From an uncultured Marinicella sp. (lineage in GTDB: Bacteria > Pseudomonadota > Gammaproteobacteria > Xanthomonadales > Marinicellaceae): DNA of 59,427 nucleotides. Position numbers and translations under genes: made by a program. Under the pieces are notes generated by a model. The model saw only the letters and a program-made list of their open reading frames with translations. It did not search any database and was not told the origin of the DNA. The stretch covers positions 1 through 59,427 of the forward strand of contig CALDFB010000276.1 in the NCBI GenBank assembly GCA_937942365.1. The letters run 5' to 3'. Below, in pieces: positions 540-18,412 of this stretch (within the stretch, counting starts at the first letter, position 1; the number at the start of each line of letters is the position of its first letter).

Positions 540-2135
540 TCAGTCAAATTGGTTCATGGTGTTATCTGCCCCGGATGCTTTGAGTGCTGCGTCACCTGAA
601 AAATATTCTTTGTGATCATCACCTATATTTGAGCCGGCCATGTCTTGGTGTTTAACGCAGGCCAACCCTTCGCGAATTTCTTTTCTTTGTACGCCATTAA
701 CATAAGCCAACATCCCTGCTTCACCGTAATAGCCTTTGGCCAATTGATCTGTGGCCAGAGCAGCTGTGTGATAAGTCGGTAAGGTAATCAGGTGGTGAAA
801 GATTCCAGCTTGTTGAGCACCATCACGTTGGAAGGCTTGAATCATGTCGTCGGCTTTTTGTCCCAGTGGTGTGTCATCGTATTTGACATCCATCAGTTCT
901 GCACGATCGTATATGCTGACGTCAATACCCGATTCAACCATGGCGTCATAAGCTTGTTGTCTGAAATTTAAAGTCCAGTTGAATGACGGTGAATTGTTAT
1001 AGACCAATTTGGCGTCAGGAACCACTTCACGAATGCGTTTGACCATGCCGCCAATTTGACCGACATGGGGTGTTGAGGTTTCAATCCATAACAAATCAGC
1101 GCCATTTTGTAAGCTGGTGATACAATCTAAAACACAGCGGTCTTCGCCGGTGCCCTCTTTGAATTGAAACAAACCACTGGCCAAGCGTTTGGGCCGCAGT
1201 AATTGGCCATTGCGATTAATGACTACATCGCCATTGTTCATATCAGAGGGTTCAATCTCCTCACAATCTAAATAAGCATTGTACTGATCACCCAAGTCAC
1301 CTGGTTCGTTGGTTACAGCAATTTGTTTGGTTAAGCCAGCACCCAAAGAATCTGTTCTTGCCACAATCACACCATCATCAACACCCAGCTCAAGGAATGC
1401 ATAACGCACAGCTCGAATTTTTGCCAAAAAATCTGCATGCGGTACAGTGACTTTACCATCTTGATGACCACACTGTTTTTCATCCGATACTTGGTTTTCA
1501 ATTTGGATCGCACAAGCCCCTGCTTCGATCATTTTCTTGGCTAATAAATAAGTGGCTTCTTCGTTACCAAAACCTGCATCAATATCAGCAATGATTGGAA
1601 CTACATGGGTTTCAAAACTATCAATGGCATCTTGTAGGCGTTGTGAATTGACTTCATCACCGGCGGCTTTGGCTGCATCCAGATCTTTGAATAAACCACG
1701 TAATTCACGGGCATCGGCTTGCTTCAGAAAATCATAGAGCTCTTTGATGAGTGCTGGCACACTGGTTTTTTCATGCATTGATTGGTCAGGTAAGGGGCCA
1801 AACTCAGATCGTAATGCAGCGATCATCCAACCGGACAAATATAAATAGCGTTTGTCAGTTGTGCCGTGGTGTTTTTTTACGGCAATCATTTTTTGTTGAC
1901 CTATGAAACCATGCCAACAACCTAAAGATTGGGTGTAGTTAGCTGGGTCTAAATCATAATCGCGCATGTCTTTACGCATGATTTTGGCTGTGTATTTGGC
2001 AATGTCCAAGCCAGTTTTGAAGCGGTTTTGGAGTTTCATCCTGGCTACAAACTCGGGATTAATTGATGACCAAGGCGATTGATTGTCTTTGATAAGTCCA
2101 TTGGCTGATTTCACTTCTGTTTGGTAGTTTGACAT
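540..2135 (-). CDS. aceA: Isocitrate lyase (long, Pseudomonas-type)
   Basis: Catalytic KQCGH motif; PIIADIDAGFG; YNNSPSFNW. Confidence 0.97.
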   Translation of the reverse strand: MSNYQTEVKSANGLIKDNQSPWSSINPEFVARMKLQNRFKTGLDIAKYTAKIMRKDMRDYDLDPANYTQSLGCWHGFIGQQKMIAVKKHHGTTDKRYLYLSGWMIAALRSEFGPLPDQSMHEKTSVPALIKELYDFLKQADARELRGLFKDLDAAKAAGDEVNSQRLQDAIDSFETHVVPIIADIDAGFGNEEATYLLAKKMIEAGACAIQIENQVSDEKQCGHQDGKVTVPHADFLAKIRAVRYAFLELGVDDGVIVARTDSLGAGLTKQIAVTNEPGDLGDQYNAYLDCEEIEPSDMNNGDVVINRNGQLLRPKRLASGLFQFKEGTGEDRCVLDCITSLQNGADLLWIETSTPHVGQIGGMVKRIREVVPDAKLVYNNSPSFNWTLNFRQQAYDAMVESGIDVSIYDRAELMDVKYDDTPLGQKADDMIQAFQRDGAQQAGIFHHLITLPTYHTAALATDQLAKGYYGEAGMLAYVNGVQRKEIREGLACVKHQDMAGSNIGDDHKEYFSGDAALKASGADNTMNQFD

Positions 2136-17877: not shown

Positions 17878-18135
17878 TTATTCCATCACAGGTCTTTGAA
17901 CACTCTTAATTACTGAATATTTAATCCCAGCCGTATGCTCATCAAGTTTGATAAGCTCATGGCCAAATTTTTCACACCAAATCTCAAAATCCAATTCAGC
18001 ATGGATATCTGTGACTGTAATTTCTACCATATCACCTACTGATACTTGATCAACAGCCTTTTTAAGTATCATCAATGGCATTGGACAGTTCAGTCCAGTG
18101 GCATCAACGTGAGTGGTGGTGTGTTTGGTTTTCAT
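17878..18135 (-). CDS. TusA/SirA family sulfur carrier
   Basis: DATGLNCPMP (CPxP motif). Confidence 0.9.
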   Translation of the reverse strand: MKTKHTTTHVDATGLNCPMPLMILKKAVDQVSVGDMVEITVTDIHAELDFEIWCEKFGHELIKLDEHTAGIKYSVIKSVQRPVME

Positions 18136-18202
18136 GTCAAAGATTGTATGGACTTAAACTAAGGATACAAGTGACAGTTGAACTTTTTTAAACCCCAAGA
18201 AG

Positions 18203-18287
18203 ACAAAAGACCGCTTCAGGAGCGGTCTTTTTAGGTCAAGAGATCAAGAAAGGGGGAAAAGGGTGTGTGAGCTTGATCTCTAACTTG
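18203..18287 (-). ncRNA. Candidate ~85-nt sRNA with a C/U-rich loop and intrinsic terminator
   Basis: 10-bp stem (18239-18248/18272-18281) with loop CUCACACACCCUUUUCCCCCUUU; terminator 18205-18232; CRP box and -10 upstream. Confidence 0.6.
18205..18232. terminator. Rho-independent terminator (potentially bidirectional)
   Basis: aaaagaccgct-tcagg-agcggtcttttt. Confidence 0.8.
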
Positions 18288-18293
18288 TATTCA

Positions 18294-18335
18294 AGTTTAC
18301 GCGGTTGATACAAAATTATTGTGATGATGCTCACA
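18294..18335 (-). promoter_or_regulatory. Perfect CRP/Clp box plus -10 element (class II geometry)
   Basis: TGTGA-tgatgc-TCACA at 18320-18335; minus-strand TAAACT at 18299-18294, placing the box centre near -41. Confidence 0.7.
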
Positions 18336-18347
18336 AAAAACCAATTC

Positions 18348-18379
18348 AAAAAAAAGGCCTTGAAATCATTTTCAAGGCC
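18348..18379 (-). terminator. groEL intrinsic terminator
   Basis: Minus strand ggccttgaaa-atga-tttcaaggcc followed by a T run. Confidence 0.85.
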
Positions 18380-18412
18380 CAGATCAGCAGGATAACTGTT
18401 CAGAATGATGAT

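What the first reader, a model, noticed from the sequence alone, without database searches (positions are those of the whole stretch)
18203..18335. Unannotated CRP/Clp-box-driven sRNA with an anti-Shine-Dalgarno-like loop between groEL and the TusA-like gene
Seen on the minus strand, immediately after the groEL terminator: a perfect TGTGA-N6-TCACA box (18320-18335) and a TAAACT -10 at class-II spacing. These are followed by a 10-bp stem AGAGAUCAAG/CUUGAUCUCU with the 23-nt loop CUCACACACCCUUUUCCCCCUUU, then a second intrinsic terminator (18205-18232). Together this is a complete ~85-nt transcription unit with no ORF. Established analogies in design: CRP-activated CyaR and the C-rich-loop sRNA sX13 of Xanthomonas. 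Homology to either is not claimed.
Basis: partly seen in the sequence, partly recalled or inferred. Interest (0 to 1): 0.7.

Follow-up and report, generated by a model that had tools for sequence, protein, structure and literature searches.

The report
Clp-box small RNA of Marinicellaceae
An uncatalogued, roughly 85-base non-coding unit with a promoter-like box, a hairpin carrying a large C-rich loop and a terminator is conserved across one family of marine bacteria; it is likely a regulatory small RNA switched on by the regulator Clp and predicted to pair with G-rich messenger RNAs, whose identity was not found.

Summary
Box 18335-18320, -10 TAAACT, 10-bp stem, 23-nt loop and terminator are as described.

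It is a family-wide, single-copy unit. The box/-10/C-tract pattern occurs in 37 of 39 family genomes against 9 of 261 others. Box spacing is 20 nt in 38 of 41 units. Both helices covary (14 of 16 pairs), and the first stem's sequence turns over between genera.

It is neither groEL read-through nor a tusA leader: groEL lies upstream in only 16 of 36 genomes and tusA downstream in 22 of 36, and tusA has its own leaderless-type promoter. There is no Rfam match.

Two corrections:
- The only CRP-family protein found is a Clp orthologue carrying E99, so the input is likely c-di-GMP, not cAMP.
- The loop is not a classical anti-Shine-Dalgarno: CCUCC occurs in 3 of 41, CCC(A/U)U+CCC in 38 of 41. It resembles the G-tract-binding loops of sX13, AbnZ and RepG.

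No target beat shuffled controls, and expression was not tested. Verdict: a new sRNA family of a known kind.

The parts
18320..18335 (-). Perfect CRP/Clp box TGTGA-N6-TCACA; centre -41.5 if +1 is 18286 (inferred)
   Evidence: Sequence. Both half-sites near-invariant while the N6 and the spacer vary across 38 units with a 20-nt spacer.
18294..18299 (-). -10 hexamer TAAACT (family consensus TAnAmT), 20 nt from the box; no -35 consensus
   Evidence: spacer 20 nt in 38 of 41 units and 21 nt in 3.
18201..18286 (-). Predicted small RNA, about 82-86 nt, starting at the conserved AAGUU
   Evidence: Model R1 match 18286-18201, 98 bits, the only strong match in the genome. No ATG. Ends inferred, not measured.
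18272..18281 (-). Stem 1, 5' arm AGAGAUCAAG
   Evidence: 9 of 10 pairs have changes on both sides across 27 distinct sequences (alignment fitted to the model); 6 of 10 on a plain MAFFT alignment.
18249..18271 (-). 23-nt G-free C/U-rich loop with two C-tracts; predicted seed
   Evidence: Unpaired in the fold. CCC[AU]U+CCC in 38 of 41 units; G in the loop in 4 of 41.
18239..18248 (-). Stem 1, 3' arm CUUGAUCUCU
18205..18232 (-). Intrinsic terminator, A-tract/hairpin/U-tract, potentially bidirectional
   Evidence: 5 of 6 core pairs covary; the consensus is recovered on a structure-blind alignment.
18355..18380 (-). groEL terminator; separates groESL from the unit (context)
   Evidence: groEL identified.
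18143..18170 (-). Separate promoter-like site of the tusA-like gene: TTGTAT (18170-18165), 16 nt, TACAAT (18148-18143), 7 nt before the ATG, so likely a leaderless mRNA (context)
   Evidence: Sequence. The same TA..AT-N6/8-ATG layout is seen in most tusA-linked members and in genus g4, where tusA is not next to the RNA.
17878..18135 (-). TusA-family sulfurtransferase gene (downstream neighbour, not part of the unit)
   Evidence: Pfam PF01206, 65.5 bits; below the NCBIfam TusA equivalog cut-off.

Best explanation
This is a conserved stand-alone non-coding unit (box, -10, hairpin with C-rich loop, terminator) that is likely transcribed as an ~85-nt trans-acting small RNA, likely activated by Clp bound at the box and predicted to repress mRNAs by pairing its loop C-tracts with G-rich stretches. 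Shown: the anatomy, its conservation, the covariation, the independence from neighbouring genes, and a Clp orthologue with E99 in the genome. Inferred: Clp bound at about -41.5 stands in for the missing -35 (class II activation); because E99-type Clp proteins lose DNA binding when they bind c-di-GMP, the RNA would be on at low c-di-GMP and off at high; the stem is a scaffold that holds a 14-26-nt single-stranded loop open; pairing near ribosome-binding sites would block translation, as with sX13 and AbnZ. The targets are not identified.
For: - Pattern of box + -10 + C-tract: 37 of 39 family genomes versus 9 of 261 genomes of other families; the reversed-pattern control rang in 2 of 300 genomes.
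- Box halves and -10 conserved at fixed spacing while intervening bases are free; no -35 consensus.
- Covariation: 11 of 16 pairs on a MAFFT alignment and 14 of 16 on the model alignment; 0 of 500 shuffles reached either value, and slid controls fall to 30-49% paired versus 98%.
- Eight divergent members each fold alone into stem + loop + terminator, z -4.7 to -9.7.
- Neighbours vary: groEL upstream in 16 of 36 genomes, tusA downstream in 22 of 36.
- The only CRP-family protein found has Xanthomonas Clp 3IWZ as best PDB match (E 2.7e-77), with E aligned to E99. PMC10333796 (passages) gives E99 as the signature of c-di-GMP-binding, DNA-binding-inhibited Clp.
- hfq is present, and 18 proteins carry a GGDEF-like motif.
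- Precedent for C-loop/G-tract pairing: PMC3771888 and PMC11724286 (passages).
Against: - No expression data are in hand.
- Target searches gave no signal above controls. In 883 orthologue pairs (G000 versus 2.4 of 4.0 Mb of G005) the real loop gave 0/0/9/25 jointly top-ranked pairs at four thresholds, within or below the range of 25 shuffles, and 21 pairs below -10 kcal/mol versus 23-49 for 12 shuffles. Only 2 of 883 pairs share a long G-tract site, both inside coding sequence.
- The loop's exact sequence differs between genera, so a single conserved seed is not obvious.
- A structure-blind alignment of 13 divergent members recovered only the terminator, not stem 1.
- The 20-nt box-to--10 spacer is one base shorter than the E. 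coli class II standard as I recall it.
- E99 was checked only in this genome.
- The U-tail in genus g1 is short for Hfq.
Confidence: 0.6

Rival explanations
1. It is a real Clp-controlled small RNA, but the pyrimidine-rich loop works by binding a protein (a decoy for a single-strand, C/U-preferring RNA-binding protein) or by sponging another sRNA, not by pairing with mRNAs.
For: No mRNA target rose above shuffled controls. Across genera, composition and loop size are kept (C+U 77-88% in 40 of 41 loops, G nearly absent) more strictly than exact sequence.
Against: Short 4-6-bp C/G seeds of the sX13 type are hard to detect by energy ranking, and only two genomes (one partial) were compared. The two-C-tract motif is kept in 38 of 41 units. 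No candidate protein was identified. It has no GGA loops, so it is not CsrB/Rsm-like (sequence; motif recalled).
Confidence: 0.2
2. The RNA is real and pairs with mRNAs, but the box works differently: the protein represses, or responds to cAMP like CRP/Vfr, as with CyaR.
For: The box overlaps the -35 region. The spacer is 20 nt rather than 21 in 38 of 41 units. Vfr and CRP are the next-best structural matches (E 1e-68 and 5e-63). Ligand binding was not tested.
Against: There is no -35 consensus for a repressor to cover. The protein has R-E-V where Vfr has R-S-A, with E at Clp position 99 (PMC10333796 passages).
Confidence: 0.12
3. It is a general anti-Shine-Dalgarno RNA that pairs with canonical AGGAGG sites, like CyaR.
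For: The loop is C/U-rich and unpaired; CCUCC is present in 3 of 41 units (genus g5).
Against: UCCU in 0 of 41 and CCUCC absent from 38 of 41. Mean duplex energy with initiation regions is weaker than for all 25 shuffles. The genome's commonest upstream 5-mer is AGGAG, which the loop does not complement.
Confidence: 0.04
4. It is a cis element: the attenuated leader of the tusA-like gene, or a processed 3' tail of groESL.
For: It lies directly upstream of tusA in 22 of 36 genomes and downstream of groEL in 16 of 36.
Against: Thirteen of 36 genomes have other downstream genes, including a convergent gene in G030 and G272. In G013 it lies about 7 kb from tusA. Nineteen of 36 have other upstream genes, several divergent (rnpB in L121). 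tusA has its own promoter-like site 7 nt from its ATG. No alternative antiterminator fold is predicted.
Confidence: 0.04

Closest known systems
sX13 of Xanthomonadaceae (PMC3771888, passages read)
   Same: Same order; a structured RNA with C-tracts in apical loops; the likely model for G-tract pairing.
   Different: sX13 is 115 nt with three stem-loops, always lies downstream of polA, and is confined to Xanthomonadaceae; 'Clp' does not occur in that paper. This RNA is about 85 nt with one large loop plus terminator, has variable neighbours, carries a Clp box, and gives no Rfam match.
CyaR/RyeE of enterobacteria (PMC11795201, passages read)
   Same: Similar size (recalled), CRP-family activation, and a seed in a hairpin ahead of a terminator.
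   Different: CyaR pairs with the Shine-Dalgarno of ompX, depends on Hfq, and is driven by cAMP-CRP. Here there is no anti-SD motif, no model match, and an E99-type Clp as the likely activator.
AbnZ (Caulobacter) and RepG (Helicobacter) (PMC11724286, passages read)
   Same: Homopolymeric C-tracts in open loops that recognise G-tracts.
   Different: Unrelated lineages and architectures: AbnZ has three hairpins; RepG's C/U loop lies in its terminator (recalled). Neither is described there as Clp-controlled.
Clp regulon of Xanthomonas and Lysobacter (PMC8246147, PMC10333796, passages read)
   Same: Clp orthologue with E99; TGTGA-N6-TCACA boxes. Other perfect boxes in this genome lie before genes that look secreted (judged from N-termini only).
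   Different: The targets described in those passages are protein-coding (pili, chitinase, HSAF). No Clp-activated sRNA turned up in searches (listings only).

Membership tests
Trans-encoded bacterial sRNA (kind) | Own promoter and intrinsic terminator, independent of flanking genes | tested here: met
   (sequence level only).
Trans-encoded bacterial sRNA (kind) | Conserved structure with compensatory changes and no conserved ORF | tested here: met
   No ATG in this genome's RNA and in 24 of 41 units. A structure-blind cross-genus alignment missed stem 1.
Trans-encoded bacterial sRNA (kind) | Discrete transcript detected | not testable with these tools
   No RNA run could be laid on the stretch.
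Trans-encoded bacterial sRNA (kind) | Base-pairs with target mRNAs | tested here: inconclusive
   No excess over shuffled loops; one candidate rejected.
CyaR (RyeE) | Match to the Rfam model | tested here: not met
   No match at gathering score; not among the 14 weak matches up to E 10.
CyaR (RyeE) | Anti-Shine-Dalgarno seed | tested here: not met
   CCUCC in 3 of 41, UCCU in 0 of 41.
CyaR (RyeE) | CRP-family box at activating distance | tested here: met
   (position only; activation untested).
CyaR (RyeE) | Hfq dependence | not testable with these tools
   hfq gene present.
sX13 | Located downstream of polA | tested here: not met
   Upstream is groEL in 16 of 36 genomes; the other upstream ORFs were read by eye (rpoH-like, lpdA-like and others) and none looked like polA.
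sX13 | Three stem-loops, 115 nt, Rfam match | tested here: not met
   Two hairpins, 85-102 nt as extracted; no Rfam match.
sX13 | 4C/5C motifs in apical loops | tested here: met
   CCCC in 41 of 41 units.
Clp regulon | Clp orthologue with E99 encoded in the genome | tested here: met
   E99 per PMC10333796. Checked in G000 only.
Clp regulon | Clp binds the box and c-di-GMP releases it | not testable with these tools
   Needs a gel shift or ChIP.

The most novel reading that the evidence does not exclude
A small-RNA arm of c-di-GMP signalling: Clp switches on a family-wide sRNA whose C-tract loop silences mRNAs with GGGG-type ribosome-binding sites, among them core respiratory genes (coxA, petA, petB). 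A rise in c-di-GMP would then release them after transcription and couple the motile-to-sessile switch to respiration.
Probability: 0.15. Interest if true: 0.72.

Novelty: new member of a known kind. Interest (0 to 1): 0.48.

Why it matters
It defines a previously uncatalogued sRNA family, with an alignment and covariance model, that is near-universal and single-copy in Marinicellaceae, whose named members include cultured strains (titles). The conserved box links it to Clp, a well-studied c-di-GMP receptor for which my searches listed no activated sRNA, so it offers a direct test of whether Clp has a post-transcriptional output, as CRP has through CyaR. The design itself (CRP-family box, C-rich loop, terminator) is known, which limits the surprise until targets are found.

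Tried and rejected
Rfam: 0 matches at gathering over the window; 14 weak matches, all far below cut-off, around the element; only RNase P and tRNAs in 11 related loci.

Sequencing runs: no RNA holder was listed, which is no evidence either way.

Homologues outside the family: model R2 over 150 order genomes gave weak matches; the 12 fetched from other families were generic terminators or repeats without the box geometry. The 9 out-of-family pattern matches were seen only as printed text and not folded. The viral collection gave 0 matches. A weak second match in the own genome is a tRNA-Gly plus its terminator.

Target prediction:
- Single-genome ranking had no stand-out.
- Two-genome ranking was no better than shuffles.
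- The co-folding run hit its time limit before its controls ran and showed no convincing pair.
- The DUF3450 gene looked promising: GGAAGGGAAGG stands before the ATG in all 20 genus-g1 loci with upstream sequence. It was rejected: the tract is absent in g2 and in all 10 g3-g5 orthologues, the region folds into its own hairpin, and cross-species pairing shows no matched covariation.
- GGGG ribosome-binding sites are not significantly enriched in predicted secreted proteins (p 0.11-0.12); GGGGA is weakly so (p 0.01-0.02), no more than canonical SD motifs.
- The respiratory-gene lead could not be extended to further genomes.

The inverted repeat AACTTG-AATA-CAAGTT over the -10 in this genome is not conserved and was dropped. 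Earlier scan findings: nothing relevant.

Full report
Observation. The stretch folds into stem-loop plus terminator, z = -5.8, with 0 of 200 shuffles as good. The perfect box occurs 11 times in the genome against 3.95 expected. Rfam has no match. The neighbours are groEL and a TusA-family gene.

Conservation. A tusA search over 61 genomes returned 30 loci. Among the 23 from genera g1-g3, the unit stands upstream in 21 by regex plus L016 by eye; L018 lacks it at that place and L010 is cut by a contig end. A covariance model and its refinement found it in all five genera of the family, including G013, where it lies about 7 kb from tusA. Each of the members inspected had a box upstream. A scan of one genome per species for box/-10/loop gave 50 loci, of which 36 score with the model. 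Their titles read Marinicella, Marinicellaceae, Lysobacterales or broader labels, hence the family name. In 300 order genomes a looser pattern rang in 37 of 39 family genomes and 9 of 261 others. The two family misses are G024, which has the RNA with an AATAAT -10, and G004, where tusA was also not found. There is one strong copy in the own genome.

Promoter. Among 41 distinct full units parsed from 48 loci (7 were duplicates or not parsed), the box-to--10 spacer is 20 nt in 38 and 21 nt in 3. Both half-sites and the T, A and final T of the -10 are nearly invariant, the N6 and most of the spacer are free, and there is no -35 consensus. That is the footprint expected of an activator-dependent promoter (inference). 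With +1 at the conserved A18286 the box is centred at -41.5. The spacer is one base shorter than the E. coli standard as I recall it.

Structure. On a MAFFT alignment of 19 sequences, 98.7% of cells pair and 11 of 16 pairs change on both sides. On the model alignment of 27 distinct sequences the figure is 14 of 16 (this alignment leans towards the structure). Slid controls fall below 50% paired. Eight divergent members folded alone each give a long stem, a mostly open loop and a terminator. Against this, a structure-blind alignment of 13 divergent members recovered only the terminator, because stem 1 has turned over between genera. Loops are 14-26 nt in 40 of 41 units, 77-88% C+U and nearly G-free. 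CCCC is in 41 of 41, CCC[AU]U+CCC in 38 of 41, CCUCC in 3 of 41 and UCCU in 0 of 41. So the loop complements G-tracts, not AGGAGG.

Independence. Among 36 genomes, groEL is upstream in 16, another gene in 19 (several divergent) and one flank is too short. tusA is downstream in 22, another gene in 13 (convergent in G030 and G272) and one is a contig end. tusA has TACAAT 7 nt before its ATG here, and a like layout in most linked members and in genus g4, where the RNA lies elsewhere. It is likely a leaderless mRNA with its own promoter. Leader and read-through readings are therefore unlikely.

Regulator. The search for the Crp helix-turn-helix gave three matches, of which one is a CRP-family protein; the other two look like Rrf2 and Lrp types by eye. 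Its best solved relative is Xanthomonas Clp (3IWZ, E 2.7e-77), and it has R-E-V with E aligned to residue 99 where Vfr has R-S-A. PMC10333796 (passages) names E99 as the signature of Clp proteins whose DNA binding is repressed by c-di-GMP; PMC8246147 (passages) gives the TGTGA-N6-TCACA consensus for the family. The genome is 91% complete, has hfq, and has 18 proteins with a GGDEF-like motif.

Targets. With home-made gene calls, I compared G000 with 2.4 of 4.0 Mb of G005 (883 orthologue pairs). The real loop did no better than shuffled loops and paired more weakly on average than all 25; a short-window version agreed (21 pairs versus 23-49 for 12 shuffles). The best-looking candidate, a DUF3450 gene, failed outside genus g1. 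One post-hoc lead remains: of 6 pairs with GGGG before the start in both genomes, 3 are coxA, petA and petB, and G000 genes that read as nuoA, nuoE, acnA, sodB and etfA (named by eye) also have it. It is weak: petB's tract lies inside the petA coding end, GGGG is retained less well (0.35) than canonical SD words (0.60-0.72), and it could not be checked in more genomes.

Mechanism. Shown: anatomy, conservation, covariation, independence, and a Clp with E99. Inferred: transcription as an ~85-nt RNA (about 0.9), activation by Clp (about 0.8), and action by loop/G-tract pairing (about 0.65 if expressed). Overall 0.6. The main rival is a protein decoy or sponge.

Comparison. It works most like sX13 (PMC3771888, passages), AbnZ and RepG (PMC11724286, passages) in its loop, and like CyaR (PMC11795201, passages) in its promoter. 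It fails the membership tests for sX13 and CyaR. A search for Marinicella + small RNA + transcriptome found 0 papers. None of the 25 listed of 56,205 mentions Marinicella. Searches listed no Clp-activated sRNA (listings only). The library omits most subscription papers, and no supplements were read, so a prior listing in a large RNA-motif screen is not excluded.

Verdict. A real, uncatalogued, family-wide sRNA-like unit: a new member of a known kind, with a plausible c-di-GMP link. Interest 0.48.

Noticed in passing
L104, L113, L116 (about 1440-1590, minus strand): A separate sRNA-like unit in three unrelated records (two titled Burkholderiales): CRP-type box, 21 nt, TAnACT/TATAAT, an unpaired ACGA..CCCAAGACA..CCAATCCCC segment, then a hairpin and U-tract; tRNA-Asn lies beside it in L104 and L113. 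No Rfam match. Possibly another uncatalogued CRP-driven C-rich sRNA family.
   Followed up: partly
L100:1501-1650 (+): A record titled Rhodospirillales has box-21-TAAACT followed by a stem with a 23-nt C/U loop, the same design as this RNA, but no model match and no Rfam match.
   Followed up: partly
window 18170-18135 (-): The tusA-like gene looks leaderless (-10 hexamer 6-8 nt before the ATG) across the family, also in genus g4, where it is divergent from another gene.
   Followed up: partly
G000:C53:1998-2130 (-); L264-L286: The DUF3450 gene start is nearly invariant in nucleotides in genus g1 (GGAAGGGAAGGT-ATG plus eight codons) and folds into a hairpin over its own ribosome-binding site. 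A second conserved block (GGCAGTTATTCTTG..CCACTAAGTCGAGTG) lies about 100-130 nt upstream. Possibly a cis-regulatory leader.
   Followed up: partly
G013:C107 165425-172769 (L018, L063): About 7 kb, beginning and ending with pilin-like genes (by eye), separates the RNA from tusA, and a hairpin resembling the RNA's terminator stands again just before tusA.
   Followed up: no
G152:C49:24400-24474 (-): An out-of-family pattern match with TAAACT followed by a long C-tract; not fetched or folded.
   Followed up: no
G000:C81:12872 (+) and L223:2258 (-): A TonB-dependent receptor gene has a conserved CATGTTCGGGTGGAACAGGAG before its start in both genomes; possibly the end of a riboswitch leader. Not tested.
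   Followed up: no
G000 C135:9553, C235:4527, C328:4396, C124:7260, C324:4989: Other perfect or near-perfect boxes lie before genes that look secreted or signalling-related; the C235 box has TATAAT at the same 20-nt spacing. A first sketch of the Clp regulon.
   Followed up: partly
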